A stretch of 64,000 bases of DNA, taken from Mytilus trossulus (lineage: Eukaryota). Numbering within the stretch: position 1 is the first letter of the stretch; each line of letters begins with the position of its first letter. Both the position numbers and the translations under genes were made by a program. The stretch spans positions 70,928,001 to 70,992,000 of the forward strand of contig NC_086373.1 in the NCBI RefSeq assembly GCF_036588685.1, written 5' to 3'. This document shows, piece after piece, positions 1,807 to 56,270 of this stretch. The notes beneath the pieces were generated by a model. That model saw nothing but the letters and a program-made list of their open reading frames with translations. It searched no databases and was not told the origin of the DNA.

Positions 1807-1868
1807 TCGGTTACCATCTAGCACAATATCACTTGTTTTATACATGTGGATAAACATTGTATAAAAAT

Positions 1869-3110
1869 ATGATTAAGGCAAAACAACTATTTATCCTATT
1901 TTGGTTATTTAGCGTGCTGTTGGTAAAAGGATTTCACGCCATACTGCCAAATGTGCCTCTTAGCCAACATGGACAATTAGATTTGGCATTTTTAATAGAC
2001 ACAACAGGCAGCATGGGTTCGTATATCGAAAGTGCAAAGCAGAACATCAGAGGAATTGTAAACGAAATAGTTACTTCATCCGGCAGTGATGTACGATTAG
2101 CGTTGATAGAATATAGAGATCATTCACCACAAGATAGAACTTTTGTCACCCGCAAAAATGACTTCACATCTTCTGTATCCACTATGAAATCCTGGTTAAA
2201 TACTGCACGTGCTAGAGGAGGAGGTGATGGACCGGAAGCAGTAGCAGACGCTATGTTCGAATCAACTAAATTATCATGGCGACAGGATGCAACAAAAATA
2301 TGTGTCATGATATCTGATGCACCTCCCCATGGACTTGTGCCGTCCGAAGACAGTTCATTTCCACAGGGATCTCCAAACGGTCATGATCCGATGCAAATAG
2401 CTCGTGACTTGGCCCAGAAAGATATAACTTTATATGTCATTGGCGTGGAGCCACCAATTGTTTCTTATAAAGACTTTTTCATGGCTTTAGCTTATCTCAC
2501 AGGAGGCCAGTATGTCCCCTTGTCGATACCTCGTCTTTTGGTTAATGTTATAACAGGGGGAGCTCAGGAAGAACTTTCATTACAAAGGTATCAAACAGAC
2601 ATACAGCATGAAATCGACACATATTATGGAGGCGGTGGAGGTGGTGGAGGCGGAGGAGAAGGGGGAGGTGGTGGTTCCAAACCAATAAACAAACAAGAGA
2701 TTGCTAATTCTCTTTACCAGAAATTTAAAAAATTAGGTGCTAAATCCAAACATTTATCTAGGAACAATAAAGCTATAGAAGGCCCTTCAGCAAATGCTAA
2801 GTTAATAGCATTAAAATATTCGATGGCAGAAGTAAGGAAAGTATTTAAAAAAGGAACAACTCCAGGAACATTAGGAGGTGGCGGCAGTGGCAGTGGGAGA
2901 TTCAGTGGCGGAGGGAGCGGCAGTGGGAGCCATAGTGGCGGAGGGAGCCATAGCGGAGGAGGTGGCGGAGGTGGCGGTGGAGGCGGGGGTGGTGGTGGCG
3001 GTGGTGGCTCAAGTAGAAGTGACACATATTCAACAAAAGAATCTGGAATAACACTGGAACAAATTAACAGATTAGTCGAAAGGAAGACGGCAAGATTACC
3101 AAGGGGTTAA
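1869..3110 (+). CDS. Secreted vWA-domain protein with Gly-rich inserts (paralogue 1, 413 aa, no intron in CDS)
   Basis: First ATG at 1869 (the ORF track starts at TTG 1857). Hydrophobic signal-like N-terminus LFILFWLFSVLLVKG. vWA motifs DLAFLIDTTGSM (MIDAS variant), EYRD, GGGDGPEAV, ISDAPPHG. Poly-Gly tracts. C-terminal STKESGITLEQINRLV shared with both paralogues. Confidence 0.9.
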   Translation: MIKAKQLFILFWLFSVLLVKGFHAILPNVPLSQHGQLDLAFLIDTTGSMGSYIESAKQNIRGIVNEIVTSSGSDVRLALIEYRDHSPQDRTFVTRKNDFTSSVSTMKSWLNTARARGGGDGPEAVADAMFESTKLSWRQDATKICVMISDAPPHGLVPSEDSSFPQGSPNGHDPMQIARDLAQKDITLYVIGVEPPIVSYKDFFMALAYLTGGQYVPLSIPRLLVNVITGGAQEELSLQRYQTDIQHEIDTYYGGGGGGGGGGEGGGGGSKPINKQEIANSLYQKFKKLGAKSKHLSRNNKAIEGPSANAKLIALKYSMAEVRKVFKKGTTPGTLGGGGSGSGRFSGGGSGSGSHSGGGSHSGGGGGGGGGGGGGGGGGGSSRSDTYSTKESGITLEQINRLVERKTARLPRG

Positions 3111-3917: not shown

Positions 3918-4400
3918 AAAATAAACTCGTCATAGATACCAGTATTGAATTATTGTATTTACGCCAGGCGTGCGTTTTGTCTACAAAAGAATCATCAATG
4001 ACGCTCGAATGGAAAAAGGTAAAATGGCCAAACAAAGCACGAAGTAGAAGACCAAACATTCATAAAAGTTTTGCCAAAAACAGCTAAAGTAATATATTCC
4101 AGAGGTTGAAAAGCCTACGTGGCACGGTACTTGTTTATCCCAAATTCATGTATATTAGATGTTATATTTGTTATTCTCGTGGGATTTTGTCTGATGCTTG
4201 GTCCGTGTCTGTGTGTGTTGCGTTTCGGTGCTGTGTCGTTGTTCTCCTCTTATATTTAATGCGTTTCCCTCGGTTTTAGTTTGTTACCCCGATTTTGTTT
4301 TTTCTCCATGGATTTACGAGTTTTGAAGAGCGGTATATACTACTGTTGCCTTTATTTAGTATTTTAAAATTCAAAGTTTAGTTAACAGTAAATTTATAAG
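3918..4400 (-). mobile_element. Decayed retrozyme copy (family A) with mutated hammerhead, interrupted by a SINE-like repeat at ~4118-4357
   Basis: Colinear with 4505-4750. The core at 3961-4004 reads TTGATGA..AAAA instead of CTGATGA..GAAA. Homology resumes after ~4357. Confidence 0.6.
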
Positions 4401-4504
4401 CAATATCTATTTTACTATAAGTTTTTAAGTTCTTAAGTCAATTTTGATGAATGGTAATGAAGTTTAAAGATTCAGATTAGCCTTACCGATTGATTATATG
4501 TCGG

Positions 4505-4870
4505 TAAATAGTTATCAAAAGTACCAGGATTATAATTTTATACGCCAGACGCGCGTTTCGTCTACATAAGACTCATCAGTGACGCTCAGATCAAAATAGT
4601 TTGAAAGCCAAACAAATACAAAGTTGAAGAGCATTGAGGACCCAAAATTCCAAAAAGTTGTGCCAAATACGGCTAAGGTTATCTACTCCTGGGGTAAGAA
4701 CATCCTTAGTTTTTCGAAAAATTCAAAGTTTTGTACACAGAAAATTTATAAAAATGACCATATAATTGATATTCATGTCAACACCGTAGTGCTGACTACT
4801 GGGCTGGTGATACCCTCGGGGACGAAACGTCCACCAGCAGTGGCATCGACCCAGTGGTTTAAATAGTTAT
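4505..4870 (-). mobile_element. Non-LTR retrozyme monomer (family A, 355-nt unit)
   Basis: Bounded by direct repeat TAAATAGTTAT (4505-4515 and 4860-4870). Contains an intact minimal hammerhead and the structured motif shared with family B. Confidence 0.8.
4542..4585 (-). ncRNA. Minimal type I hammerhead ribozyme
   Basis: Minus strand reads GCGUCA-CUGAUGA-GUCU(UAUGU)AGAC-GAAA-CGCGCG-UC/UGGCGU: core boxes intact, stem I and stem II pair, palindromic stem III, GUC cleavage triplet. Confidence 0.9.
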
Positions 4871-5397
4871 AAACTATTTACAGGCTCAATAGATAAATGT
4901 AAGGCCATAGATCAGACATTTACAACAATGCAAATGACATTATTAACCAATATTTTAATTTGTTCGTTAATATTTCCTATGCAAGTTGAATCATAAAAAA
5001 CAAACACAGGACTAACAATCCTCATCTTGTAAAACATTTCCGTAGACACAAGGAAGGCTACTACTGGAATCGGGAGCACAGAATTGTGACACCATAAATT
5101 ATGGTTGCAATGAGAAAAAATGTTGAATAGGTATGATTCTTGTAGCTCGGCGAAAGTGAAGATCACTTTCAACTCTGAAACTTAAAGTAGACATCGTCAT
5201 GGTCATCGCCATTATGTATCACTTACTTAGCATGATGTCTCTTTTAATGAAATTGAAATTATTATAAATTAAGGAATGTATCTCCCTCATGCAAAGCTCT
5301 GATTCCTTTTAGGATTTGGCTATACTTTTTGGACCTTTTGGATTATAGCTCTTCATCTTTTTATATAAGCTTTGGGTTTCAAATATTTTGGCCACGA

Positions 5398-5441
5398 GCA
5401 TCACTGAAGAGACATGTATTGTCGAAATGCGCATCTGGTGC
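5398..5441 (+). ncRNA. Minimal type I hammerhead ribozyme
   Basis: GCAUCA-CUGAAGA-GACA(UGUAU)UGUC-GAAA-UGCGCA-UC/UGGUGC: core intact, palindromic stem III, predicted cleavage after C5435. Confidence 0.9.
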
Positions 5442-5748
5442 AGAAAAATTGGTACCGTTAATGTTATTACTACCACTGGGTCGATGCCTCTGCTGGTGGA
5501 CTGTTAGTCCCCGAGGGTATCACCAGCCCAGTAGCCAGTACTTCGGTACTGGCATGAAAATACGGATTTTTTTGTGTTATTAAAATTTGCTGTTACAAAA
5601 TGTTTGAAATTATTATAAATTAAGGAATGTATCTCCCTCATGCAAAGCTCTGATTCCTTTTAGGATTTGGCTATACTTTTTGGACCTTTTGGATTATAGC
5701 TTTTCATCTTTTTATATAAGCTTTGGATTTCAAATATTTTGGCCACGA

Positions 5749-5792
5749 GCATCACTGAAGAGACATGTATTGTCGAAATGCGCATCTGGTGC
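5749..5792 (+). ncRNA. Minimal type I hammerhead ribozyme (second copy)
   Basis: Identical to 5398-5441 and 351 nt downstream. Predicted cleavage after C5786. Confidence 0.9.
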
Positions 5793-6044
5793 AGAAAAAT
5801 TGGTACAGTTAATGTTATTAATGGACTTCTGCCATTTATAAATACATATTTATCACATTCGCTGGCAGCGTGATGCACCAACCCTTCCAAAACTTCATCC
5901 TCTGTGCAGCTTATGTTTGAAAAAACACTGTTACAAACCCTCATTCAAATTTTCAAATCTATATACATTTAACGCTTTCGTCTAGCATATTGTCAGTAAC
6001 ATATTGTTTCGGAGCGGTTCTAAGTAGACAAAAGATGTTTTCTA

Positions 6045-6480
6045 CATATCATTTTGCTAATCAAGGTATCGATGACATCGACTTAGGCAATCTTTTAAAA
6101 TCAATCAACTCACTCGAAAATACTTCCCTATTCAAAGATCAGTCAGAAGCTTTCTTGTCTTTTACCTAAACAAAAGCTTTTGGAACTATAATTTTCATTT
6201 ACTAACACGTGTTGCATGATCTCAATATTGAAGACTTCGTGTCTACCTCTCCCGCCTCCACCTATTGTAACTTCTCATTTATATAATCCAGCAGTTCACT
6301 TTATTACTAGTGTCATGCACATTGTCAAATACACTACTTTTTACAATGTATCCTTATACCCGATATGTCGTGAGCATTAATACATTAGTTCAAAAGGATA
6401 CATTGTAAAAATTAGTGAATTTGACAAAACTTCAAAATACTGATGGATTCAATCGATGAGTATGCCAATAAATAGGATCC
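6045..6480 (+). pseudogene. Highly decayed retroelement ORF remnant, possibly Penelope-like
   Basis: Frame-broken peptides FANQGIDDIDLGNLL, HVLHDLNIEDF, IYNPAVHFIT and FKILMDSIDEYA resemble, from recall only, the region upstream of RT in bivalve Penelope-like ORFs. Confidence 0.35.
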
Positions 6481-6913: not shown

Positions 6914-9266
6914 GTCATTCCCAAAAAATGAGTACAATTACAAAATTAGTGTCGCCGGCAAATAACCACAAAATGCAAGCTTAACATATGTCACAGATAA
7001 TCTTTTTCGTGTTTTAAGTGATTAATATGTATACTAAAATAAAATTGTATTCTTTTGTGATGTAAATCGTAAATATATTTGTGTGATTTTCTATTCAATT
7101 TACGGAAATCACACGAATTACGAATGTCGCCAAGAAAAACTCCAAATATCGGTGTGAATTGAAATACTTTATTTCATCTAAATCATGATTAGATATGCAC
7201 TATTTTTTTGACACTGTATAGATTTTTATCCACAAAAATATTTTAGAATCAAGTTGTAATATACACTTTGATTTACTCATTAAACCAATGTCGCCGATAA
7301 ACGTATAACCTACCGTAACGTATCTTTAGGTACAGTCAAAACATATTTATATGATTGAAAATCATGCCCAAAGTGACTTTAAGCAAAGTTGGTACATCAA
7401 ATTTTAAAATCCTGCCTTTAACTTTTATTGCAATGAAACGAAAAATCAAAAAAAATCTTCTTTCTCTCTTTTTTGTTTATTGTCGCATATAAGAATCTAA
7501 CCTACGTAACGCGTATTTTGGAACGCACTAACCAAGAACAAATCAAAATGCTGATTATTTCATTGAAATCACCCATAAAGCGTCTTAATAATCAGTTTTG
7601 AGAAAGCAACTCAACAATATTATAACATATGTCCATGTATAATGTAAATAACACTCACCTCCGTTTAAATAACCTCCGTGACGCAGTTATTTACAGTTTA
7701 GTTGTCAGACATTTTTTTATCAGTGTCAGCGGCTGCTGACACTGCCGAAAGTAATTTTTGTAGCAGACAGCATTTATTATAAAGGAAACAGACAAACAAA
7801 ATACTGAAAAAATACCCAAAATGTTGTTTTGAGATAGGTAGGTTAACTTGTTTTTCCCTATTATGTGAGCAACATTATAACGTTTAATAAAAGTTATATC
7901 AGCCTTTTTCTTAGATTTGAAATAGTCTACAACACAACTTGTGTAATTACGACGACAATCATAACTTTAACAATGGTTTTTAGCAAACATTTTCAAGATT
8001 ATTTAGGACTCAACAATGTAACGGAGGTTGTGCAAATAAAAAAAATCTAAACATGCATGTAAACACGATCATACCAATTGAAATTCTTGTACATTGTTAT
8101 AGATACCAAATCTGTCCATCAATTATCACTAATAAATACCAAAAGGTGATGTCTATCATAGAGGACATCATTGATTTACGTTACGGAGGATAGAAAATTA
8201 AGGAATAAAAGATTTTTTCTCTAACAGGACTTTACTCTTCTTCGATAAGGATGTACTTAGAAAAATGTGTAATTCTGTTGTCTTGTTTGTCATTCAATTC
8301 CAATATTTACATTCATTTATATGTTGAACTGGAATTGTCCGTTATGGAGGTTTTAAATGTCGTTACGGAGGATAGAAATTTTCGAAATGAAACTATTTGA
8401 CTCCAAAACTTCATAGTTGAGTATAATGTATACATTATAGTGTGAAGGAAGATGACATTATCTGTAAAGAGCTAATAAAATTAAGTTGAACATTATTCGG
8501 TTTAGGTAAATAATATTTTTAGTGAAAGTTCATGAATCGTTGCGAAGATTTTGACAAGAACAAGTTCATTTGACTAAAAGAAACATACAACTTGATAGAA
8601 AACAGTTTTTTTAGTTTGTAATGTCAATAAATTGTTTAGAAAAGCTAGCATTAAAGAGTTAAGTGTTACTATGTATCAGCATTTAGATACTGGTTTGATA
8701 TTAACCTCCGTAACAAAGATGGGGGTGTGGATTGATACAAGCATAACAAATACATACAAGTGATTCAAAACATATATAATAGGGTTTTTCCTTGAAAGCT
8801 GTATTATGAAACTAAAATAATATACAGCATACCATTTCATAAGTTTAAATTCATTACTAAATAAGTTGTGAAAACTATTAATTTGAATTATTTTTTAAAC
8901 GCTATATAAATTCAGACCTTAAAATTGGTATTTGCTTTCAATATAAACAGAATAATACGTATAAATCAGTTTGCTATGGTGGTAAATGTTTCCCTTTTCA
9001 CATGAGCCTTGATTTAAATCTTGTGTTTTTCTCTAATGCAATTTTAAAGATGACTTTATACAACACTAACCTCCGATACGTTCATACTGACCTTGTCTTA
9101 CAAAAAAAGCTAAAACTTGAAAACAACTAAAATGGTGTAAGTAAAAATTTAAAAAATGACAGACTAGATATAGACACAGAAGAAAACAGCACTCTCTCTC
9201 TGCTCAGTTGAAATTTATTTTTTAACAGTGTCTACATTCGAATTGTACCCATTTTTTGGGAATGAC
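6914..9266. mobile_element. Non-autonomous TIR DNA transposon (~2.35 kb)
   Basis: GTCATTCCCAAAAAATGAGTACAATT and AATTGTACCCATTTTTTGGGAATGAC are inverted termini. Dispersed internal CCTCCGTAAC-type motifs occur in both orientations. TSD unclear. Confidence 0.7.
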
Positions 9267-10169
9267 AATCTGTAATTTGTGTCTTTCTATTGTTTGAATG
9301 TATAAATACCCGTCTACGTTCACTCTGTGTATTTCTATTTGTATCTATTTGATGAGTTTATCATATCGTACAAATTATATCATAAAAGATAACGAGTCTG
9401 ATAGCATACAGTGGGGTATCCAGTATGTCATGTTGTCCAACTTTTATTACCTTTATTTCTGGCTGTCAATAATACGAAATTATGTAACTGGTCTTTGTAT
9501 CAGATGAAAGTATGATCTCTGTTATGCTTCGAATTATAATACCATTGACTTCCATATGAGTTTGTTTGTGTGGCTGCACCATAGACGCAGAATTAGAACT
9601 AGAAATTGTGTCTACCATGCATATTTGAATACAGATAGTCTTTACAATTAAAATAAACAAATAAATTTAAACGTGCAGTTGTAGATCTTGAGAAATATGT
9701 TTCATCATTTATCCATGGGTTTACATAGTTTGAAAACGAAAATATTTCAATGATATAAAATGGTTACCCCCAAACTTAATAAAAACCCTGTTTCAACCTG
9801 TTGTCATATGTTCCTAAAATGTGATTGATATCCTGCTGTTATGATTATTTAAATGCTCATAAATGAGATCAGTCAACCTTTGACCATCAATAAGCACAAC
9901 GTTACGCTTAAGAAAACCCATGTTGTTTAACATAGTAAATTTAATTCAGATTATGGATAGGAACATCTTTGAGGTGAGGGAGTACAAACTGTATTGTATA
10001 TGATAGTTTTTAATGATTCAATAAATGTAAATGAGAAAACAGTCACTCATATAAACATACACAATAAGTCAGTTAATTCATCAAGAAAAGTCTAGATTCT
10101 TTGGTTCATTATTTTGCTCACCCATATAATTAGTCTATCACAAATACACAATGTCATGCTGATAAAATC

Positions 10170-11474
10170 TCAAACACTAGGTAATCTTGCAGTCTCTTTT
10201 TGAACTAGTCTGTTAATTTGTTCCAAGGTTATTCCAGATTCTTTTGTTGAAAGTTTGTCACTAACACTTGAACTCGGACTACTAGCTTTAGATAGTCCGA
10301 TTTTGGAAAACGAACTTGACATTCGCCGTGCACTTCCTCCTCCGCTTCTACGGAACCCACCCTTCGTTGCGAAATCTGGCATCAACCTACCCAATCTTTT
10401 ACGTGGTGAAAATGAAAATGATGTTCTCGGAGTATTTCCTTTTTTGAATATTTTTCTTACTTCTGCCATTGATTTTTTCGATGCTAATAATTTAGCATCA
10501 GCAGAAGGTCCATCTAGAGTTTTGTTGTTCTTAACCAGTTGTGTAGATTTTGCACCTGATTTCTTGAGCTTTCGGAATACAGTTTGTGCAATTTTCTGTC
10601 TATCTATTGACGTGCCTGACCCGGCCGCTGCAGAAGCTTGTTTAATTTCTCGTTGCACGTCTGCTTGAAACTTCCGTAAAGACAGTTCTTCCTGAGCTCC
10701 CCCTGTTATAGCATTAACTAAAAGACGAGGTACTGATAATGGGACATATTGACCTCCTGTGAGATAAGCTAAAGCCATGAAAAAATCCTTGTATGGAACA
10801 ATTGGAGGCTCCACGCCAATAACATATAAAGTAACACCCTTCTGAGCCAAGTCACGAGCTATTTGCATAGGATCGTGACCATTTGGAGATCCCTGTGGAA
10901 ACGACGTGTCTTCAGACGGCACAAGTCCATGAGGAGGGGCATCAGATATCAAGACACTTATTTTAGTTGCATCCTGTCGCCATGACAATCTAGTTGTTTC
11001 AAACATAGCGTCTGCAACGGCTTCCGGTCCATCACCTCCTCCTCTAGCACGTGCAGTATTTAACCATGATTTCATAGTAGATACAGAAGACGTAAAGTCA
11101 TTTTTTCGGGTGACAAAAGTCCTATCTTCAGGTGAATGGTCTCTATATTCTATCAATGCTAATCGTACATCACTGCCGGATGAAGTAACTATTTCCTCTA
11201 CAATTTCTCTGATGTTCTGCTTTGCACTATTTATATACGAACTCATACTGCCTGTTGTGTCCATTATGAATGCTAGATCTAATTTTCCATTTTGGGAAGA
11301 TGATGGTTTTATGAAGTCAACAATGGACTCCTGTTGTCCTTCAGGTTTAAAACGCGTGTCTGGAAGTTTAATGCTTTTTCCTTTCACAGATTTTATTATT
11401 CTAGTGTTGATCCCAGTTATTAATAACACACACAGAAGCCAAAATGATATACAAGATTGTGTTGCCTTGGTCAT
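10170..11474 (-). CDS. Secreted vWA-domain protein with basic Arg/Ser/Phe-rich tail (paralogue 2, 434 aa, no intron in CDS)
   Basis: ATG start, signal-like ISFWLLCVLLITG, same vWA motifs (DTTGSM, GGGDGPEAV, DAPPHG), conserved C-terminal peptide. Confidence 0.9.
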   Translation of the reverse strand: MTKATQSCISFWLLCVLLITGINTRIIKSVKGKSIKLPDTRFKPEGQQESIVDFIKPSSSQNGKLDLAFIMDTTGSMSSYINSAKQNIREIVEEIVTSSGSDVRLALIEYRDHSPEDRTFVTRKNDFTSSVSTMKSWLNTARARGGGDGPEAVADAMFETTRLSWRQDATKISVLISDAPPHGLVPSEDTSFPQGSPNGHDPMQIARDLAQKGVTLYVIGVEPPIVPYKDFFMALAYLTGGQYVPLSVPRLLVNAITGGAQEELSLRKFQADVQREIKQASAAAGSGTSIDRQKIAQTVFRKLKKSGAKSTQLVKNNKTLDGPSADAKLLASKKSMAEVRKIFKKGNTPRTSFSFSPRKRLGRLMPDFATKGGFRRSGGGSARRMSSSFSKIGLSKASSPSSSVSDKLSTKESGITLEQINRLVQKETARLPSV

Positions 11475-11522
11475 ATTGTCAGATACCTTATTGAATAATC
11501 TATGATGAAAGCTAGTAACGAG

Positions 11523-11770
11523 TTTTTATATGTTCTCAACAGTTCACTACTCGGGAAAATGACGTAAAGTTACTACTTACCTACGTCGTAAGAAAATCAC
11601 CATGTATATACAATACAAATTTGGTAAACATGTCGTAAATCCATCAAATTTTGACGCAATGACAATGTACAGGTGAAATTTGAATATTTTACAAATATCA
11701 ACGATAATGATAATGTATACCACTCCAAAGAAAAAGAAAATCCCAACCTCGAATCTGAATTTATTGACGT
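11523..11770 (-). promoter_or_regulatory. Promoter of vWA paralogue 2
   Basis: Minus-strand CATATAAAAA ~50 bp upstream of the ATG, conserved block at 11649-11680, ACGTCAAT at 11763-11770. Confidence 0.55.
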
Positions 11771-14700
11771 GATATGTTGGCTATTGCACACCCTTTTTTT
11801 TAATTAAGACTTCATTCTGCATGTATATCTACCACTCAATTAACATGAGTTGACAACGATTAAATATCTTAATCAAAATATGTAAACGTTTTCAAACAGA
11901 CTTTAAAATCGTTATTGAGAAAAAAGACACAAAATTAAAAGCAGTGCATCATTAAACTTCTTCTATATTTAAAGCTTATTTCCAATTTTCGAAATTTTGC
12001 AAAAAGGCTTATGAATTTATTGAGGTCTAAAAAATATAATCCGAAACTGTTAGTTATAGTTGTTTGCAGAAATGGCTATGGCTAGACAAAAAATGACAAA
12101 AAGCACATACCGAAAGAGTATTAATAATGAAATAGACATTTTTTTTTAATTTGAAATGCAGCTAGGAACTTATATGATATTATGTTATGAAAATAGATAA
12201 AACTCAAAGGTGGTTCCTTTTCAGCTTCATTTCAAACAGTCTTTCCACAAACATACACAGACTATTGTTTTTCACTGTATTTATAAATGAAATGAAATAC
12301 CACAAAACAATATCGAGTTGTCTTCATAGAAAGCTATGGATCAACATCAAATGCAATGTTTCATGAACTGTGTCTATAATATTCTCATTTGGTGGATTTG
12401 AATCAGATTGTTTTGTGCTTATACTTTGTAAAGTAATAAGAGCAAAAGGATTAGCAAAATATACAATATATTGTTCAGTAAAGCAGATTAATATTACAGA
12501 CGCTTAAGACCCAATTTACAAAGAAACACGTAACTAAATGCATGTATTACAATATCAAAAATACACTCAGTTACTAAAATAATTGTAATTGTAATGTAAC
12601 TGCTTTAATAGAAACTTTACCTTATACACTCTTAGTCTTATGTTGATCAGTATAGTTCTGAACATATTTAAAAGAGCAAATGGATATTGTAGCAAATTTA
12701 CAATCTTGTGCAATATTTATAAACGAATGTTTTGTAACTTTAGTTAAAATCGTCCATTTTACTACATTTACAAACTCTTATTTGACCAAATATGTACTCA
12801 ATTACAATCGTTATTTTCTCAAACGTTTTTATTTTATTCATGTCTCTGTAATTGTTATACTTTTGATCATGGTAAATAATACTATGATGTTATAACATTT
12901 GGTGTTTAATAAAACATCAGGGTGGTGCGATGCTTTTTGTTTTAGATGAATCAGTGAAACTGGCAGATTCTGTAAGGGACTAATTATAACTAAAAACATC
13001 TTTGAATTTTTGAATTTTTTAAGTTCTTCTTTGCCTCTTCTATATCTCTCTAATTTGTACTATATATCCAAAATTTGAGATAATCCTAACAAGATAGTAA
13101 ATTTAAAGAATAAAATAAGAAAAAGACCTTAAAAATAAATTTAAAGATTCTTTTATCTCGTTCACGCCTTTGTTTAAAGTTACATTCTTTATGTCGATTC
13201 AAATGATTGATAAGTTTAACTGCCTACGTCGGTTAAAAACGTAACATTTTTTCTAGATCAACTGAAGAATTGAGTATAGACTATACTACAAATGCATTTC
13301 GACAGGTAGGAAATAATGGGATTTGTTTTTTCGCCAGTGTCATGTTTATATCGCTTATTATTTAAATATCAAGAAGAAAAATTAAACTGTTTTTGTTTAC
13401 TTATTGACTTGCTTTGATAGAAATAACAAGTGTGTTTTCCCTAAGATACACATTATTGCTTAAGGCTAAGTCATGTCGTGTTTCATTATACCAAACAAGA
13501 CAATTACATTTACCACCTGGCGAAACAAAAATGTCATTTACAAGTAAATATGCACATGATGTATGAGAATGCATTGTTGTCCTAATGTTATATGCAAGTA
13601 TTTGATTTGTTGTAAGCAATATGGATCCTTGCGTTATAATGTATGCACATGATATAACTGCATCTAACTAAAAATATATGTCCGTGCGCATACGTATTAA
13701 CAAATGGGTATTCCGCGACAGACAAAAACCATACATAGTAGTTTTTCCAAACATGTCACGACAATTTTCATGTTGTCTTTTTTGGGGTCTTTTTTAAAAC
13801 ATTATTTCAAGCAGTGACGTGTATTTGATTATAAGTTTGTGCTGCTGGTAAGTAATTTATCAATTTGAACATGAAGGCAGCTATCTGATTTTTTTTGTTT
13901 TCTTTTGGAGTTCATTCAATTTCCCCATCCCTTGTTTGTAACCGTGATTTGTTTCTTGTTCATCGATTTACAAAATTTCAACATCGATTAACCAGCGTTC
14001 CCTAAATTCAACATTTCAGATTTTTTTCCAGTAGGATGATAAAAAAATCAGTTTTTTTCCATTGAAACTAGCAATTGGATGGCGTTTTGCTCACACAGCA
14101 GCGCCATATAGAAATAGTTAAAATACTGTCTTTTCTTTTTAAATGCAGATATTTTATTGGTAACCTAGAACTAGAAACATTTTTTTACACTTGGTTATAA
14201 ATGATTTCATTCAAAAAAAGAAAATAGGGTCAAAATATTTTGGGACATCCTTTTTGGTGAGGTGAAAATAATCTTGCATCTTTATCAACACGTACAAGCA
14301 AGTTTCCAACATAATTTATTTAATTATCTGAAATACAGTGTCAAATCGATAACTTTTCTTCAGAGACCAAAGGACGATGATTTATGCAACTACAGGTCTT
14401 AGAACAGTGAACAAAAGCAACACAGTAAAATACTATTATAAAGGCCAAATCATGACTATATGTGAAAAATATCAAAAAGAATACCAACTTCCTGTTTACG
14501 TACAAAACAATAAAAGTTAAAAACAACTAATATGAATAAAACCCATCAATTACTGCAAACTTTAAAAAAAAAAAAAAAAAAAAAAAATCAAAACAGGAGT
14601 ATGCTTCTGTATTTTTTAAATAGTTTTTCATTAGGAAAAAAATAAATACCGTTCAGAATACATTTTAAGTTACCTTAAAATAAATCCATGAAAAAGACGT

Positions 14701-15579
14701 AAAATTAATTTTATAAGATTCTTATTTGATGAAATTTTGATTATCCGTAATGAATAAATTGTTTTGTTTGGATAATTGAGTATGGAACCCCTGGAGTGAT
14801 ATGCAAAATAAAATTACAACTTCTGCGCGCTAGTTACTATCTTGTGCACAGAACTTGCGCGCACAAGTTACACGTGCTCCTATTGACATGCGCTCATTCT
14901 GTTTAGAAGGCTAATATATGACAAACCGTGACTGCCTCATGCGAACAATATATATGTTTATATATACACATCCTTTTCCTACATATACACAGAGTTTACT
15001 ATATATGCACATATTTGTTCTGCATATGCACATAGTTTACTTTATATGTAGATACTTTACCTATTATTTTTTGCACTTAGTTTACTTTATATGCATATAC
15101 TTTTTCTTTATATGCACATACTTATTCTATATATGAATTTAGTTCTTCATGTGCATACTTTTCTCAATATGAACAAAGTTTTTTAATGTGAGAATAACCA
15201 TTCATATGATGCTTTTCTGTTGTTTTTTTTTTTCAGTCTGAAATAAAGCTCCTGCTATCATAAGCAGAATGTTTAATAAGCATTTCTTAAGGATGTATGT
15301 TCTCAGTTTAAGAATAACGATTTTTTTGTATAACTGTAATTTTTTGGGGATTATATAATGGTATAGCGCTGTAGCCTTCATCTTTAGTCAGTCACTTGTT
15401 TTCAAGCCATAACGTTTAATTAGCCGATTTGCTTGAATGATATTTTAATATAAGGAATCCTTCCACAACAAATACAAAATAAATACATAATACAGTTATA
15501 TATAGCAGCTTACCTATTTAATAAAAACATATGCATTCAATATAAGGAGAAAAATACATTAGTTTCATGCATCTTTATT

Positions 15580-17960
15580 CTGTTCAGTTAGAAGATAGTT
15601 TGAACAGTTGGTCTTAAAAGTATCTAAATTATCTATTTCTTTAATATTTTTTGGTAAATTATTCCAGGTAATTAGACCAGAATATCTAAATGTTCTTTTT
15701 AAATAATCAGAATTAGGTCTTGGGACATGAAGAAGTCCTGATGTTGTCGACCTCAGACAATAATTTTAAAGATCAGTACAAGCAGTAAATTTCATAGATA
15801 GATAAGCAGGTGCTAGACCATTCATACATTTAAACATTAACACAGCTTGAAAATAGTGTATCCTCGTAAATATAGTATCCATGCAAGTTTTTTAAACATT
15901 AATGTTGATGGGGAATCAAAAGAAACAGATAAAATTCTTGCAACACGTTTTTGGAGCTTATGTATCCTCTCCAGATAACTGTTTGTCGTAGGACACCATA
16001 CTGTACAACAGTAGTCAATAATGGGTAATATGTAGCTATTGTAAAAAAAGAATAAGACCCTTTAATACCTTCATCAAGAACGCTCAAAGCCAAACATTGG
16101 AAATCCGAAGATATATAAGTACCGAAACCTTTTTAGCAAATATATTCTGGCTGAAATAGTTTTGCATATTTTATCAATTTGAATTGACCATGGTAGATGT
16201 TTATCAATATGAATTCCAAGAAGTTTTTCAAATTCAACATTATTTAAAGTGATATTATCTTGTGATAAAACACATAAACATTCATTGCAGTTTTCCAGTT
16301 TTCTGTCTGATTCATCAAGCATAAATTTGGATTTCTTGCTATTTATCGTCATATCATTTTCTTTACACCATTTAAGGTGGCTCGTGGGTACAAAAATTTT
16401 AGCAAAAAATTAAACCTTTATTTGTTCATTACACATTTTATTTATTACCCTATTAGTTGTTACTTTATGATATGGTACAAAAAACAACCCAAAAAAATGA
16501 TTTGGTTTGGCCCCAGATGACTTTAAAAATTGAAAAAGCTCCAAGTTATCTCCCTTTGGTGCAAAAATGCCATTTGAAATATCTTTTTTAACTCATCGGT
16601 GACCTATATTTTTTATTATTGCTTTCAAATAAGCTGTACATAAACTAAATAATTGTAAAATTTAAGCGATTTCTTATATTAGGTTATTTTTTTATTTCGA
16701 TATTTCCTCTTTTTCTTCTATTAGTTCAACAGAAAAAAAGGACATTAACAAAAATGCATGCTTCTTCCAGAGGCAGATTTTAGCTTAAATGAACGGTGAC
16801 CCCATTTTTTATTTCATTTTTCATTTAAGTATGTGATAAAGTTCATTTATGAAAAAATATAGCGAAATCCTATATTAGAAAAAAAAAACATTTATACCCA
16901 GGAGCCCCCTTAATAACATTGTCTAAGTCTTTATTTAAACATATATTTAAATTGACAATAGATTTAGATGACAAATACAAAGTTGCACCATCAGAATATA
17001 GATCAGATTCTGTATATTTGAAGGTTAATGGCAAGTCATTGATATAAATAAAAAACAATAAAGGTCCAAGTATAAAACCTTGAGGAACTCCAAAAGTTAC
17101 AGTTTCATATTCTGATTCAGTGGTTCCTAACTTATCTTTTTGCATTCTCTGAGAGAGGTATGATGAAAACCATTTTACAGAGTGGACATCACATTTGTAA
17201 AATTTTAGTTTTGATAATAAAAGTATATTGTGATTTACTGTATCAAATGCCTTCTTAAAATCTAAAAAGAGAATAGCGGTAAATTTTCCATTGTCAAATT
17301 CCTCTAAACAATTTATCAATTATTTTAATGAGTGCTGTATGACAAGAATGTTTTTCTCTAAATCCAGACTGCTGTTGTATTAATAATTTTTGTGTGGTTA
17401 AGAACAAATAAAGTTGTTTAAAGACAGTTTTTTCAAATAACTTGGACACAGTGGGTAAAATTGAAATTGGTCGATAATTGTTTGGGTCTGTTTTATTCCC
17501 TAGATTTTAATATATTAGGAAATATTCCTGTACATTAACTAAGGTTTGTTATGTGAGCAAGGGAGCTTGCTACAATCGACCTTGATAATTTTAAAATTCT
17601 TGGTCCAACTCCCTCAGTTCCGGTTGATTTAGTTATGTCTAGATTTTTTAGACCTTGTAGAACCTCATCATTTGTGACAGTAAATAATGAGAATTTAGTA
17701 TCATCAATTATTTTTGATTTGACACAGTTATTAATTTTCTCAGATTTAAAAGTTTTGTGAGGATTTGATATAAGCTTCTCACCTACTGTGCTAAAATGAT
17801 CATTTTAGCAGTTAGCAATATCATTTTTGTTTACAATTACTTTCCTTCGTGTGTTAAAATGTCAATTTCCTGTTTTGTTGTTGAATTCATATCCTTCAAA
17901 TGCCTCCAAAGAATTTTACAGTTTTTATCGTTTTCTACTGCATCCATTAAGTAACTAATT
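15580..17960 (-). mobile_element. Decayed CR1/L2-type LINE (RT and C-terminus)
   Basis: Minus-strand motifs NYRPISILPTVSKLFEK, QSGFR, FLDFKKAFDTVNH, GVPQG.ILGPLLF, YSDG (degenerate YADD), LGIHID..L.W, FRYSG...WNNLP, with frameshifts. Boundaries approximate. Confidence 0.85.
16376..16909. mobile_element. Kolobok-like non-autonomous element inserted in the LINE
   Basis: TIRs GGTGGCTCGTGGGTA / TACCCAGGAGCCCCC with TTAA TSD (16372-16375, 16910-16913). Removing it restores the LINE frame NVIKWCKENDM. Confidence 0.8.
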
Positions 17961-18349
17961 TTGACAATCAAATATTAGAAACTTGATACGTCTCTACCAA
18001 TTATGTAAATAAAAAGGAATTTCACTCCTTGGAAATTTTTATTCGGGGGAATAACCCTAAGTAATTGAAACAGTTACTTGCACCCTTATGTTGACCTAAC
18101 ATGTAACGTGAACAAGATATATCCGTATTTAAGAGAGAGGTTAATGATGTGGGTTTCACGTCCTCTTCTATAAATTTGTCTTTCAATGCACGTAATATCT
18201 AGCTATCTCGGAAGCTAATATATTTAACTATAGGTTAGTTCTTTGTTCAGGAGGAACTTTCATTATATCCTTGGTTATATATTGATGTGGTTCGTTGGCT
18301 AGATATTTCCACTACAAATCATACACGATGGTCTTTATGTATAGATTCT

Positions 18350-18885
18350 ATGTACTGACGTTGTTTATCATCTAAATTAAGTGTTGTAGTGTTTTTATAT
18401 TTGTCTTTCTAAATTGTTGTTAATAGTCTATTTTGTTGGTGTCCATTTGACCTGACTTTGTACTTATACATACCGTCATTGTATTATTGTGCTGTGGTAA
18501 ATTTGTGTATTCTTGTCCTTAGTTTTTGCTAATATGCTTTGTCTATATGCCATTTTGTTTTCCTTATTAGCATATGTGTTTGTTTGTATATTGATTCAGA
18601 TTTTAACACAATGTTGACTGCTGTAACCCTGTTTTGACATTTGTACCTATTATGTCTTTACGATTTGTTTACACATTGTTGTCAATAAAATGAAATTTTC
18701 TGCGACTGTCATACAAGTGAGAGATTTAGCTAGCTATCAAACCAGGTTCAATCCACCATTTATATAAGAAAATGTATGGTGTTATCAATATGTGATGTGT
18801 TCGAGCATTTGATTTCGTCATTTGATAAGGGACTTTTCGTTTATAATTTTTCTTGGAATTCGGTATTTTTGTTATTTTATTTTTT
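18350..18885 (+). repeat. Interspersed SINE-like repeat
   Basis: 3' part is clearly homologous to 51005-51333 (GCGACTGTCATACAAGTGAGA..TAGCTAGCTAT..AACCAGGTTCAATCCACCA). Confidence 0.65.
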
Positions 18886-19204
18886 AATGAATTTCCAATA
18901 GTGTTAAGAACTAATTATTTATAAAATGACTTTAAGTTAAAAAGATTTCATATCAAAGTAAGACCTTTTTAAACCAGTGCCTTATATTACAGTAGATGAT
19001 TACTCATTTTAATTTCATTACACAGGCATTAAGTACTGAAGTTGAATGGTAAGCATTATTTCTATATCACTGCACTCACTTCATGCTAACAACAACCACT
19101 GAAGCAATTTGCTAAGATCTCTTAACACTTGATCAGTGCGTGGCCGATGAATTTGGGGAGTTTGATACCACAAATTTTGTAGAACTTTTTAATTCTTACT
19201 GAGT

Positions 19205-19436
19205 GCACCAATGGCAGAGTGGTTTAAGTAGTCCAACTATTGTATCATTAGCCAATCAACACTGAGGTTGTGAGTTAGAATCCCGTACAGTTCAGATACA
19301 CTCCAATTTTAATTGACTAGGATTGTCAGTTTTCCTACCGAAGTTCGGGGGGTCTCTCCGAGCACTCCGGCTTCCTCAACCAATAAAACTGACAGCCACG
19401 AAATAGCACTAGTGTTGAAATGGCGTAAAACATAAA
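19205..19436 (+). mobile_element. tRNA-derived SINE (V/Meta-type central domain)
   Basis: A-box-like TGGCAGAGTGG, B-box-like GTTAGAATCC, central TCTCCGAGCACTCCGGCTTCCTC, A-rich tail. Confidence 0.6.
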
Positions 19437-20062
19437 AAAAAATAATTAATTGGATATTGTCATTCTATTTCGTGAGCACGTTACAATCAACGTTGACTAA
19501 TCACTAACACGATGATGAGATCTTTGAATATTATCTCTATTGGTATTAGCATCGATTTTGAGCTGAATGAATTAAAATATAAATAGATGTATTTTGCTAT
19601 ACAGTTATGAACACTGATTGATAACTTAAAAAAAAATAATTGATTAATTTCTTAGTCAGCAAGCTAATTTTCAGAAAACATGTTTTTATAAGGATGTTCC
19701 AATGTAGCCTTCAATTCAGTGGTTGAATTGTTTGATAGCTTGACATCTCGGGACCCTTTGATAGCTTACTATTTGGTATTGAGATTTAACTTGGATTCAC
19801 GCCATGTGGTATCTGATGGATAGTTGTGTCATTGACATTCATACCACATCTTCACTATTTGTATACTAAGCATTGGGTTTTTTAAATTATTTTGTATGAA
19901 ACAATTGTATGCAAAGTGAAATTATTAAGTAAGGGAACAAACAGTAATGTGGAAATTACATTTTTAATGATTCAAAATTAATAGAAAATGGAAGTAAGAT
20001 ACGATCAAACATACACATATACACACAAATAAACAATTTCATACAAAAGTTAAATTTGCATT

Positions 20063-21376
20063 TCAAACACTCGGTAATCTTGCCGTCCCCTTTTCAACTA
20101 GTCTGTTAATTTGTTCCAACGTAATTCCAGATTCTTTTGTTGAAAGTTTGTCACTAGCACTTGAACTCGGAATCATAGCTCCAGGTGACATGCTTCTCGA
20201 TGGGCCTCCACCGCCGACTCTTCCACGCATGCCTCCACCCATGCCTACACGCATGTCTCCACCCATGCCTACACGCATGTCTCCACCCATGCCTACACGC
20301 ATGTCTCCACCCATGCCTCCGACTCCTAAAAATGGTGTCGAAGTGGTCCCTTTTTTGAATACTTTTCTTACTTCTGCCATTGATTTTTTCGATGCTAATA
20401 ATTTAGCATCAACTGAAGGCACTTCTAAAGTTCTGTTGTTCCTGACTAATTGTTTAGATTTAGCACCTGATTTCTGTAGTCTCTGAAATACAGTTTGTGC
20501 AATTTGCTGTTTATTTAAGGAGTCACCTGCTGCAGAAGCTAGTTTAATTTCTCGTTGCACGTCTGCTTGAAACTGACGTAAAGACAATTCTTCCTGAGCT
20601 CCCCCAGTTATAGCATTAACTAAAAGACGAGGTACTGATAATGGGACATATTGACCTCCTGTAATATAAGCTAAAGCCATGAAAAAATCCTTGTATGGAA
20701 CAATTGGTGGCTCCACGCCAATAACATATAAAGTTACACCTTTCTGGGCAAAGTCACGAGCTATTTGCATAGGATCATGACCATTTGGAGATCCCTGTGG
20801 AAATGAACTATCTTCGGACGGCACAAGTCCATGGGGAGGTGCATCGGATATCATAACACTTATTTTAGTTGCATCCTGTCGCCATGACAATTTTGTTGCT
20901 TGATACATAGCTTCTGCAACGGCTTCCGGTGTATCACCTCCTCCATTTGCGCTTGCAGAATTTAACCAGGATTTCATAGTGGATATCGAAGACGTAAAGT
21001 CATTCTTTCGGGTGACAAAAGTTCTATCTTGTGGTGAATGGTCTCTATACTCTATCAATGCTAATCGTACATCACTGCCAGATGTAGCAACTATTTTGTC
21101 TACAATTCCTCTGATGTTCTGCTTTGCACTATCTATATACGAACCCATACTGCCTGTTGTGTCCATTATAAATGCCATGTCTAATTTTCCATTTAGCGAT
21201 GGGGGTCGTTTTATTATGTCAGCAATAGACTCTTGTTGTCCTTCTGGCCTTGTAGGCGTTTTTGATAGTTTAACATACTTTCCTTTCAAAGATTTTGGTG
21301 TTCTAGTGCTGATTTCACTGATTAACAACACACATAGAAGCCAAAATGATAAACACGATCGTGTTGCCTTTAACAT
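20063..21376 (-). CDS. Secreted vWA-domain protein with GMGGDMRV-repeat tail (paralogue 3, 437 aa, no intron in CDS)
   Basis: First ATG at 21376 aligns with the paralogue starts (the ORF track starts at GTG 21436). Signal-like LSFWLLCVLLIS, vWA motifs, conserved C-terminal peptide. Confidence 0.9.
   Translation of the reverse strand: MLKATRSCLSFWLLCVLLISEISTRTPKSLKGKYVKLSKTPTRPEGQQESIADIIKRPPSLNGKLDMAFIMDTTGSMGSYIDSAKQNIRGIVDKIVATSGSDVRLALIEYRDHSPQDRTFVTRKNDFTSSISTMKSWLNSASANGGGDTPEAVAEAMYQATKLSWRQDATKISVMISDAPPHGLVPSEDSSFPQGSPNGHDPMQIARDFAQKGVTLYVIGVEPPIVPYKDFFMALAYITGGQYVPLSVPRLLVNAITGGAQEELSLRQFQADVQREIKLASAAGDSLNKQQIAQTVFQRLQKSGAKSKQLVRNNRTLEVPSVDAKLLASKKSMAEVRKVFKKGTTSTPFLGVGGMGGDMRVGMGGDMRVGMGGDMRVGMGGGMRGRVGGGGPSRSMSPGAMIPSSSASDKLSTKESGITLEQINRLVEKGTARLPSV
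20225..20318 (-). repeat. Coding 24-bp tandem repeat (3 perfect copies plus 1 variant)
   Basis: ACACGCATGTCTCCACCCATGCCT at 20247, 20271 and 20295, encoding GMGGDMRV. Confidence 0.95.
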
Positions 21377-21438
21377 ATTTTCATACACTTTTAATTCACA
21401 TGTAATAAATAACTGATGTTGTATAAAGCTCGCCACAC

Positions 21439-21698
21439 ATTTTTATATTTTCGATTAGACGTGACATGATTACAAACTTACGTATTATTTTTTTCCAGAA
21501 ACCCCCCATGTTAATTTACAACAAAAAATCATAAACATCTTAAAACTATAAAACTTGGAATAAATTCATCACAAGTTGACACAATAACAATGTACAGGTA
21601 AACTTTTTTGGTTTTAAAAAGAAACCAGGATTTACGATAAGGATGTGTGTAAAATAGGATGAAGAATAAAACCTTCGTTAATCTTGTTTAATTGACGT
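21439..21698 (-). promoter_or_regulatory. Promoter of vWA paralogue 3
   Basis: Minus-strand TATAAAAA ~65 bp upstream of the ATG, conserved block at 21576-21603, ACGTCAAT at 21691-21698. Confidence 0.55.
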
Positions 21699-23438: not shown

Positions 23439-24140
23439 ATATTTACACACTCCCCCTTTTCAATCAAATTTCCGAAATCGCTTTCTCAGTTAATTTCCCT
23501 CAAGTTAACGGACATAAACGCTTCGAAAAAGAGTATAATATAAATAACCATGAAGGCAAATTTTTTGGTACGAATATTACACAAAGTATAAAATAAAAAA
23601 ATCAAAGGACCATAGAATCTGAGATGTCACCGTTAATTGTTTTCTTGGTAGAAACACAATATCTTATTATTCTTAGTCAATTTGCACTTACAAAAGGCAG
23701 AGATTATGAATAACTATTGAAAAATACTTCTTTCTCATTTGGATCAATGCACATTTTAGTTTTGCAACTAACAGTACGCAAAAATGTGTCAAATCTGATA
23801 TTTTTCCCATGAACTTGAACGTGAGATATATCCACCTTTTAAATTTCCTACCGTTTTAACCATCGCATACGGTAGACTTATTGATGGTGCAAATTTGGTC
23901 AGTATTTAAGAGGAAGCATACTAGTGTATGTGCTAGGGCCACGTCAAGAGCCTGTATTTTGACATGCTTTAAATACTTTAATATATGGGGATATCTATTC
24001 CTTCAGTTGACAAATTTTGAATTCTTCCTAGATATTTGAAATACAATAAATGTTCTACCTCAGGCGTATATATTACCTAAGCCGTATTTTAAATAGGATT
24101 ACGTGTTTTTAAATATTCTTCGATGTTTTACTTGGTTCGA

Positions 24141-56214: not shown

Positions 56215-56270
56215 GTTGTAAGAAATATGATCGTAAATTAGTTTATATATTCCTTGTATATAACTTCTGT

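What the first reader, a model, noticed from the sequence alone, without database searches (positions are those of the whole stretch)
5250..5817. Retrozyme with two intact hammerheads able to release a 351-nt monomer
Seen: two identical minimal type I hammerheads (5398-5441, 5749-5792) exactly one repeat unit apart, each with a palindromic UGCGCA in place of a stable stem III. Established: such motifs self-cleave as dimers, and non-LTR retrozymes of this size produce circular RNAs in several animals including mussels. Inference: read-through transcription would excise 5436-5786 as a circularisable RNA. The ORF track does not show this feature.
Basis: partly seen in the sequence, partly recalled or inferred. 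Interest (0 to 1): 0.7.

Follow-up and report, generated by a model that had tools for sequence, protein, structure and literature searches.

The report
Mussel retrozyme carrying Naiad start signal
This is one copy of a known, abundant non-coding jumping element of mussels with two intact, predicted self-cutting RNA motifs, and its copies stop at one fixed point just before a stem-loop that also opens Naiad retrotransposons, which likely names the enzyme that copies these RNA circles back into DNA.

Summary
Observation confirmed. A 568-bp element (5253-5820) holds 1.6 copies of a 351-bp unit, with identical type I hammerheads at 5398-5441 and 5749-5792, predicted to cut after C5435 and C5786. 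The host is a Mytilus mussel. The element is a sister family of the published mussel retrozyme, whose own type lies at 4504-4870; four hammerhead base pairs differ between them by compensatory changes. Two corrections: the hammerheads are canonical, not minimal, and dimer cleavage is favoured by modelling but not shown. Expression of this copy is not shown.

Added: copies end at one point, 33-34 nt past the cut site. That is 73-275 contigs per run in four DNA runs, and all 16 terminal copies examined. The point lies just before a conserved stem-loop (5475-5532) whose core opens published Naiad retrotransposon consensus sequences; the M. galloprovincialis Naiad begins at the matching position. 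Likely mechanism: the monomer is cut out, ligated into a circle, and copied by a Naiad enzyme that starts beside the stem-loop and runs round the circle. The scan noted this Naiad link before on other DNA of this genome; I checked it here. I did not find it in the papers searched.

The parts
5253..5820 (+). Whole retrozyme insertion, 568 bp = 1.62 units of 351 bp; ragged 5' end, fixed 3' end
   Evidence: Both junctions lie on contigs of run X10 (5000-5281, 0 differences; 5790-6100, 1 difference); X10 may be the window's source.
5253..5469 (+). First direct repeat (5'-truncated unit)
   Evidence: 217 nt, 3 differences to the second repeat
5604..5820 (+). Second direct repeat
5398..5441 (+). Type I hammerhead 1, predicted cut after C5435 (AUC); 8-nt palindrome 5427-5434
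5749..5792 (+). Type I hammerhead 2, predicted cut after C5786; palindrome 5778-5785
5436..5786 (+). Predicted 351-nt monomer / circular RNA; 38% GC, no conserved ORF
   Evidence: Fold z about -3, linear and circular; longest stop-free stretch on the circle 108 codons
5787..5820 (+). 34-nt tail from the cut site to the fixed 3' end of the family (same as 5436-5469)
   Evidence: Loose ends pile up at 5468/5469 in four DNA runs
5475..5532 (+). Conserved bulged stem-loop whose core opens Naiad consensus sequences; likely binding and start signal for the reverse transcriptase
   Evidence: Fold z -4.2 for 5470-5560; 77 of 88 columns identical between the families against 125 of 194 in the AT-rich body; Naiad match read in the supplement of PMC8557442
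5534..5553 (+). 8-bp hairpin with a UUCG tetraloop (UACG in the sister family)
   Evidence: Two pairs change on both sides between the families; same fold in L022
5244..5249 (+). Candidate target-site duplication TTAATG, left copy (right copy 5818-5823, whose first 3 bases overlap the element's end)
   Evidence: Chance of such a match 0.8% in 5000 random draws; not confirmed by the empty haplotype
4504..4870 (-). Separate insertion of the sister family (type of the published Rtz 375): one hammerhead at 4542-4585, about 1.03 units, same fixed end
   Evidence: 72% identity to the unit; Rfam 33 bits; matches the text of Additional file 11 of PMC4918200 by eye

Best explanation
This is a 1.6-unit copy of a high-copy Mytilus non-LTR retrozyme whose two intact hammerheads are predicted to cut out a 351-nt RNA that would be ligated into a circle, and that circle is likely copied back into the genome by the enzyme of a Naiad (Penelope-like) retrotransposon. 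Steps: (1) Transcription across a copy with two hammerheads (inferred; promoter unknown; a gene on the same strand ends at 3110). (2) Cleavage after C5435 and C5786, probably as a double hammerhead with an 8-bp stem III formed from the two palindromes (predicted). (3) Ligation by an RtcB-type host ligase (shown in vitro for a mussel retrozyme in PMC7229834; inferred here); the circle is predicted to fold with stem I open, which would protect it from re-cutting. (4) A Naiad endonuclease-reverse transcriptase binds the stem-loop 5475-5532, nicks AT-rich DNA and starts 33-34 nt 3' of the junction, just before the stem-loop. It copies back through the junction and round the circle, 1.62 turns in this copy (inferred). 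Shown directly: the fixed 3' end, the variable 5' ends, the stem-loop shared with Naiad starts, and the covariation. Corollary (inferred): a cut linear monomer would give only 34 nt of cDNA, and an uncut transcript of this copy at most a 217-nt one-hammerhead copy, so circles would be needed to regenerate two-hammerhead copies.
For: Motifs: 3 observed against 0 in 100 shuffles. Four of 12 hammerhead pairs change on both sides between the two families, in all three stems; 97% of 108 cells pair, against 17-45% when partners are slid (this is in effect two families, so four events). In four DNA runs the only listed variants inside the hammerhead (5416, 5418) fall in loop II (8 rows not shown). 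Host: a neighbouring gene is 92% identical to a Mytilus coruscus protein, and the published M. galloprovincialis Rtz 375 has the sister hammerhead and the same stem-loop (by eye). High copy: 7,181-20,402 contigs per run were laid on 5000-6100, with depth concentrated on the element. Fixed end: loose ends at 5468+5469 number 97+121, 110+165, 87+102 and 73 (5469 only shown) contigs, the largest rows in each run, with flank agreement 0.38-0.42 against 0.52-0.98 in the other rows. Of 12 hammerheads in 7 metagenome loci and window 4400-6000, the 10 terminal ones stop about 33-47 nt past the cut, before the stem-loop; the other 2 are internal. Five older window fragments and one copy with a different hammerhead, from a contig of a SUP05 (mussel-symbiont group) genome record, stop there too: 16 of 16. 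The 5' ends vary. Naiad: the 12-mer CTGCTGGTGGAC occurs 6 times in 583,359 characters of the PMC8557442 supplement, each near the start of a Naiad consensus (about 0.04 expected); four more Naiads seen, including both Mytilus ones, open with the same core. Naiad_Mgal begins with ACTAC, which matches window 5469-5473, and its outer stem differs by three compensatory changes (by eye). Precedent: the Anolis Poseidon enzyme starts inside its RNA, 3' of the hammerhead, and nicks AT-rich DNA (PMC11167929).
Against: No cleavage, ligation or reverse transcription was measured. Expression of this copy is not shown: RNA-library contigs nearly all carry the family letter rather than this copy's letter at 5605 and 5702 (other individuals), and such libraries may hold DNA. 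In the only reconstituted Penelope-like system hammerhead cleavage was dispensable and uncut RNA was the main template. The Naiad match was read by eye, in a supplement that was cut when stored, and hammerhead-bearing Mytilus Penelope-like elements were not available for comparison. In Xenopus, retrozymes match the ends of annotated Penelope-like elements, and Naiads were found only in the coral among the species sampled. The two repeats differ at 3 sites, where a fresh circle copy would be identical. The hammerhead fold is not the minimum-energy fold of its local sequence. Rfam misses both motifs. The haplotype without the element also lacks 14 bp of the expected target, so it does not confirm the duplication. 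Covariation in the stem-loop rests on 2 distinct sequences and does not beat shuffles (55 of 500).
Confidence: 0.62

Rival explanations
1. Same element and same Naiad-type start, but the template is an uncut linear read-through transcript of multimeric copies; the circles are a by-product, and arrays are rebuilt by re-insertion or unequal crossing over.
For: For the Anolis Poseidon element, hammerhead mutants inserted as well as wild type and unprocessed RNA was the main substrate. Repeats within a copy are not identical (3 of 217 here; several in L005).
Against: Terminal units lack the stem-loop (16 of 16), so each linear round would lose a hammerhead. Hammerhead pairing is kept by compensatory change between families. 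Circles dominate over linear forms in mussel RNA blots (PMC7229834).
Confidence: 0.17
2. The mobilising enzyme is another Penelope-like clade that bears hammerheads (Neptune, Poseidon, Hydra) and shares the stem-loop; the retrozyme is its deleted pseudo-LTR.
For: Naiads lack canonical hammerheads, so the hammerhead came from elsewhere. In Xenopus 24 of 57 retrozyme families match annotated elements, nearly all Penelope-like, at their ends. A few RNA contigs match only the hammerhead (5750-5791) and go on into other sequence.
Against: All 6 hits of the 12-mer core in the PMC8557442 supplement are in Naiad starts, none in the other sequences held there (file cut). The Naiad_Mgal start matches the fixed end to within a base.
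Confidence: 0.13
3. The family works as described, but this copy is a silent passenger between two convergent genes and releases no RNA. This can hold together with the best explanation of the family.
For: RNA-library contigs rarely show this copy's private letters (5605, 5702). No promoter was identified. In Xenopus only 1 of 9 predicted dimers cleaved in vitro.
Against: Both hammerheads, the stem-loop and the hairpin are intact, and an upstream gene is on the same strand. The RNA runs come from other animals, which may lack the insertion (a haplotype without it exists).
Confidence: 0.45
4. An ordinary satellite or chance duplication with hammerhead-like letters, or a viroid-like RNA that replicates from RNA to RNA.
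For: Rfam does not call the motifs. PMC7229834 notes that cloned circles match no database entry exactly.
Against: Motif statistics and covariation; dispersed copies with a fixed end and unrelated flanks; no hammerhead on the minus strand of the unit.
Confidence: 0.03

Closest known systems
Mytilus galloprovincialis non-LTR retrozymes (PMC7229834, parts 1-4 of 6 read, supplement unreadable; Rtz 375 in Additional file 11 of PMC4918200, text read)
   Same: Host genus, unit of about 350 bp, type I hammerhead without the usual tertiary-contact letters, low GC, no ORF, the same stem-loop and hairpin, a predicted circle that hides the ribozyme.
   Different: The published sequence is the sister type (CUGAUGA, C-G in stem III). 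This family has CUGAAGA, U-A in stem III (about 2.3 kcal/mol weaker as a hairpin) and 72% identity to the sister copy. It may be the paper's second ribozyme family (Suppl. Fig. S4, not seen). The text I read names no fixed end, no stem-loop function and no partner clade.
Naiad clade of Penelope-like elements, Naiad_Mgal and Naiad_Mcor (PMC8557442; passages, section 6 and supplement searches)
   Same: The stem-loop core at the start of the unit, the boundary position, 5' truncation, partial tandems, AT-rich targets.
   Different: Naiads are 3.4-4.4 kb, encode endonuclease and reverse transcriptase and lack canonical hammerheads; the Mytilus Naiads carry an extra hairpin inside the stem-loop. 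This element has no ORF and has hammerheads.
Poseidon_Ac of Anolis (PMC11167929, parts 1-2 of 4 read)
   Same: Order of parts: hammerhead, then internal start of reverse transcription, then RNA needed 3' of the start; AT-rich target.
   Different: Autonomous; starts about 85-92 nt past the cut, at two sites a tail's length apart; cleavage is protein-assisted and dispensable in vitro. No sequence likeness was tested.
Vertebrate non-LTR retrozymes as non-autonomous Penelope-like elements (bioRxiv 10.64898/2026.07.22.740005, parts 1-3 of 5 read)
   Same: Proposes mobilisation of retrozymes by Penelope-like enzymes.
   Different: Rests on co-occurrence and pseudo-LTR likeness in Xenopus; no molluscs, no insertion ends, no RNA signal, no link to a ribozyme-free clade.
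Newt and axolotl satellite hammerheads; minimal hammerheads of Penelope-like elements (PMC7229834; PMC4209133, passages)
   Same: Palindromic loop III that allows a double hammerhead.
   Different: Those have a 1-bp or no stem III; this one has 2 bp, like other invertebrate retrozymes and axolotl Amex2.

Membership tests
Type I hammerhead ribozyme | Core CUGANGA / GAAA / NUH with three stems, stem I open | tested here: met
Type I hammerhead ribozyme | Rfam Hammerhead_1 at its gathering score | tested here: not met
   Not listed at E<=10; the sister motif scores 33 of 34 bits. A model of 5 sister motifs finds both, so this reads as a limit of the library model.
Type I hammerhead ribozyme | Site-specific self-cleavage | not testable with these tools
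   Needs an in vitro assay
Minimal (PLE-type) hammerhead | No helix III; usually an extra base between positions 9 and 10.1 | tested here: not met
   A 2-bp helix III with a tetraloop is present, and there is no extra base (definition)
Metazoan non-LTR retrozyme | Tandem unit of 150-450 bp with one type I hammerhead per unit | tested here: met
   351-bp period, two motifs; L005 has a 350-bp period
Metazoan non-LTR retrozyme | Low GC, no protein coding, no separate internal region between LTRs | tested here: met
   38% GC; no long frame; the 134 bp between the repeats is the rest of the unit, as in L005 and the sister copy. No search for a primer-binding site was run.
Metazoan non-LTR retrozyme | Many dispersed copies; duplications longer than 4 bp when present | tested here: met
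   Candidates of 6 bp here and 9 bp in L001; none clear in L005, L007, L002 or the sister copy
Metazoan non-LTR retrozyme | Expressed as circular RNA | tested here: inconclusive
   Family sequence is in 4 RNA libraries of 3 studies, but contigs cannot tell circle, multimer and DNA apart
Published M. galloprovincialis retrozyme (Rtz 375 type) | Same hammerhead letters and body | tested here: not met
   The copy at 4504-4870 fits that type; the finding is the sister family. The paper's second family could not be seen.
Non-autonomous partner of Penelope-like elements | Fixed internal 3' end with variable 5' truncation | tested here: met
Non-autonomous partner of Naiad | Shares the terminal RNA signal of the autonomous element at the same boundary | tested here: met
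   By eye in the PMC8557442 supplement; not aligned by program
Non-autonomous partner of Naiad | Copied by Naiad protein | not testable with these tools
   Needs reconstitution
Naiad (autonomous) | ORF with N-terminal GIY-YIG endonuclease and reverse transcriptase; no hammerhead | tested here: not met
   No ORF; hammerheads present

The most novel reading that the evidence does not exclude
Mussel retrozymes are circular-RNA parasites of a ribozyme-free retrotransposon: they carry the Naiad start stem-loop 38 nt past their ligation junction, so the Naiad enzyme must copy through that junction, and circularisation is an obligatory step of their life cycle. Copies with two hammerheads, like this one, are then the smallest competent donors. 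The layout hammerhead - tail - fixed end - stem-loop persists across at least three families with different hammerheads.
Probability: 0.55. Interest if true: 0.75.

Novelty: new member of a known kind. Interest (0 to 1): 0.52.

Why it matters
The element kind is known, and this copy is one of thousands. What is open in print is which enzyme spreads animal retrozymes, and whether the circle is really the template: a 2020 review says the repeats show no conserved motif that points to a partner (PMC7761336), and a 2026 preprint argues for Penelope-like elements from co-occurrence and sequence likeness only. A named partner (Naiad), a defined 58-nt RNA signal and a start site fixed to a base or two make this testable with an existing in vitro assay (PMC11167929). 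If true, it would show reverse transcription of a circular RNA from an internal signal, and a ribozyme-bearing RNA exploiting a retrotransposon that has no ribozyme. The weaker stem III of this family also allows a direct monomer-versus-dimer comparison with its sister family.

Tried and rejected
Rfam at gathering score: 0 hits in the window; at E<=10 only the sister motif. No whole genome is held, so no genome-wide count of copies or ends. The supplement of PMC7229834 could not be read, so the identity of its second ribozyme family and its cloned circles remain unseen; bioRxiv supplements were closed; the 2016 dimer paper is not held. The hammerhead pattern found 0 loci in viral contigs and 0 in prokaryote genomes. 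The stem-loop pattern found 0 in viral contigs and 47 loci in prokaryote genome records; 44 are in DNA of 53-76% GC with no longer match and were dropped as chance, 3 were kept (L009, L022, L048). RNA contigs do not cover the flanks (5084-5254, 5825-5881): no evidence for or against read-through. Summed contig depths were not used as copy number or expression. One listed RNA contig bridges the cut site with 31+ letters on both sides, and two head-to-tail joints of the sister family appear, but circle, uncut multimer and DNA all give these. The bacterial promoter scan is not apt for an animal and showed nothing above shuffles; a crude A/B-box search found nothing. The short frame that starts in loop II (15 codons) is not kept in the sister family, so it was rejected as a coding remnant. 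The head-to-head layout of 4504-4870 and 5253-5820 was rejected as one two-armed insertion: different families, about 380 bp apart. The idea that 4200-4360 is a Naiad 3' end found no exact motif hit. L048 keeps the inner helix, but its fold is not better than shuffles (z -0.16), so it was not used as support. A sequence look-up among earlier findings returned nothing.

Full report
The observation. The region holds two 217-nt direct repeats, 5253-5469 and 5604-5820, 351 bp apart, with 3 differences, none in the ribozyme. Each carries a type I hammerhead with core CUGAAGA...GAAA, a 6-bp stem I, a 4-bp stem II and an AUC triplet; the predicted cuts follow C5435 and C5786 and bound 351 nt. A strict scan gave 3 motifs in the window and 0 in each of 100 shuffles. 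The third lies at 4542-4585 on the minus strand, in a 367-bp copy that is 72% identical to the unit. Rfam calls none at its cut-off and lists only the third at 33 of 34 bits. A model built from 5 hammerheads of the third's type finds both motifs of the finding at 49 bits, and three decayed ones elsewhere in the window.

The ribozymes are under structural constraint. Between the two families, 4 of 12 pairs change on both sides, in all three stems, and 97% of 108 cells pair (10 sequences, but in effect two families, chosen by a pattern that fixed the core and loop III). In four DNA runs the listed variants within the motif are confined to loop II (8 rows not shown). Stem III is 2 bp capped by GCGC, inside the palindrome AUGCGCAU. 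By the definition in PMC4209133 (passages) that is a canonical hammerhead, not a minimal one. Modelling favours the double hammerhead in the two-motif transcript (-112.7 against -98.2 kcal/mol; overall minimum -116.0), and this family's stem III is about 2.3 kcal/mol weaker than its sister's. Against a strict need for dimers, PMC7229834 (parts 1-4 of 6 read) reports about 0.1/min for a cloned mussel repeat; which family was cloned I could not see. The circle folds better than shuffles (z -2.95; 1 of 100 as good), with stem I open and the active fold 8.7 kcal/mol higher.

What it is. A neighbouring gene is 92% identical to a Mytilus coruscus protein, so the host is a Mytilus mussel. PMC7229834 describes about 5000 hammerheads in two families, in 350-390-bp repeats that are expressed as circles and ligated by RtcB in vitro. 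The published Rtz 375 (Additional file 11 of PMC4918200, text only) has, by eye, the hammerhead of the minus-strand copy and the same stem-loop and hairpin. The finding is therefore a sister family, perhaps the paper's second one. It is abundant: 7,181-20,402 contigs per run were laid on 5000-6100 in four DNA runs. Run X10 holds both junctions of this copy and may be its source; run X1 has one contig that skips the element on a divergent haplotype, which also lacks 14 bp of the expected target. A 6-bp duplication, TTAATG, is a candidate (0.8% by chance). Family sequence is in four RNA libraries of three studies, but those contigs mostly lack this copy's private letters and may come from DNA, so expression of this copy is open.

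The fixed end. In all four DNA runs the largest groups of loose ends fall at 5468/5469, the equivalent of 5819/5820: 97+121, 110+165, 87+102 and 73 contigs, running on into unrelated AT-rich flanks (agreement 0.38-0.42; 24 rows shown, 2221 not). A pattern scan of metagenomes gave 7 loci. Of 12 hammerheads in these and in window 4400-6000, the 10 terminal ones stop about 33-47 nt past the cut (read by eye), and the other 2 are internal. Five decayed window fragments stop at the same place, approximately. So does L022, a 1.07-unit copy with a different hammerhead, on an AT-rich contig in a SUP05 genome record and presumably from a mussel host. That is 16 of 16. The 5' ends vary. This is the pattern of target-primed reverse transcription from a defined internal site.

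The signal. Just past the end lies a bulged stem-loop (5475-5532) and a UNCG hairpin (5534-5553). This part is 77 of 88 columns identical between the families, against 125 of 194 in the body, and it folds the same way in three families (z -4.2 to -4.5). Three pairs change on both sides between the two window families, too few sequences to beat shuffles. Earlier notes of this scan on other DNA of the same genome said that this stem-loop also opens Naiad retrotransposons, and I checked it. In the supplement of PMC8557442 (cut when stored) a 12-mer of its core occurs 6 times in 583,359 characters, each near the start of a Naiad consensus (two oysters, a pearl oyster, two hemichordates and one other; species read from the abbreviations by recall); four more Naiads seen, including both Mytilus ones, open with the same core. 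I do not know how many Naiads in the file lack it; two starts seen in passing did not show it. Naiad_Mgal begins with ACTAC, the letters at 5469-5473, and its outer stem differs from the retrozyme's by three compensatory changes (by eye). Naiads form partial tandems with 5' truncation, prefer AT-rich targets and lack canonical hammerheads. The one reconstituted Penelope-like enzyme starts inside its RNA, 3' of the hammerhead, and needs RNA beyond the start (PMC11167929, parts 1-2 of 4).

How it most likely works. A transcript across two hammerheads is cut, probably as a double hammerhead, ligated by a host ligase, and the circle is bound by a Naiad enzyme at the stem-loop. Copying starts 33-34 nt past the junction, crosses it and runs round the circle, 1.62 turns here. 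Because every terminal unit lacks the stem-loop, a cut linear monomer would yield 34 nt and an uncut transcript of this copy at most 217 nt, so circles would be needed to keep making competent copies. All of these steps are inferred. The main results against are that cleavage was dispensable for the Anolis enzyme, that the two repeats differ at 3 sites, and that hammerhead-bearing Mytilus Penelope-like elements could not be compared.

Novelty. The element kind is published. Mobilisation by Penelope-like elements has been proposed and argued from Xenopus data (bioRxiv 10.64898/2026.07.22.740005, parts 1-3 of 5). I found no fixed end, shared stem-loop or Naiad partner in the texts I read, after seven searches; subscription papers, repeat databases and the unseen supplements of PMC7229834 and of the preprints may hold it. 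Other papers seen as passages only: 10.1101/721605, PMC7761336, PMC6765202, PMC4209133. The scan itself has noted a Penelope-type footprint in many findings and the Naiad link in this genome. Verdict: an ordinary copy of a known kind, with one testable clue to an open question. Interest 0.52.

Noticed in passing
window 4860-4880: At the 5' junction of the sister copy a perfect 9-bp inverted repeat with a 3-nt spacer ends in the family's terminal letters pointing outwards; it may be a miniature inverted arm of the kind known from Penelope-like insertions.
   Followed up: partly
window 3925-4106 (-), 24050-24250 (+), 56259-56344 (-), 22478-22506 (-), 24458-24492 (-): Older, decayed copies of the sister family; three keep a recognisable but mutated hammerhead (43-55 bits). 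All end near the fixed point.
   Followed up: yes
L009:2350-4160: A 74-bp tandem array (23 matches) made of the stem-loop alone, following a hammerhead-like motif, on a contig filed in a Bathymodiolus symbiont genome record and probably host DNA: a satellite born from the retrozyme signal.
   Followed up: partly
L022:689-1053: A third retrozyme family with a different hammerhead (extra base after the core, 1-bp stem III with a palindromic loop) but the same stem-loop, UUCG hairpin and end point.
   Followed up: partly
L048:460-572: Stem-loop core without the hairpin, in AT-rich DNA and followed by an ATG; it may be a Naiad 5' end. The contig is too short to tell.
   Followed up: no
window 5750-5791 (RNA runs X15, X16, X19): A few contigs match only the hammerhead and continue into other sequence on either side: further families or autonomous elements with a similar ribozyme.
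   Followed up: no
window 4906-4941 and 5926-5949 (RNA runs): Single contigs in three runs join these short stretches, and one joins 5535 to 4906, with short sides; possibly another repeat that carries the stem-loop, possibly chance.
   Followed up: no
window 1854-3110 (+), 10170-11525 (-), 20063-21442 (-): Three paralogous, uninterrupted VWA-domain reading frames with glycine-rich C-terminal parts.
   Followed up: no
window 29853-30512 (+): An uninterrupted intradiol dioxygenase frame (Pfam Dioxygenase_C) with relatives in other bivalves; an enzyme type better known from bacteria (recalled).
   Followed up: partly
window 16870-17319 (-) and 61806-63836 (-): A reverse transcriptase fragment (Pfam RVT_1) and a 676-codon frame without a Pfam hit that looks like the gag-protease part of an LTR retrotransposon (recalled likeness).
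   Followed up: no
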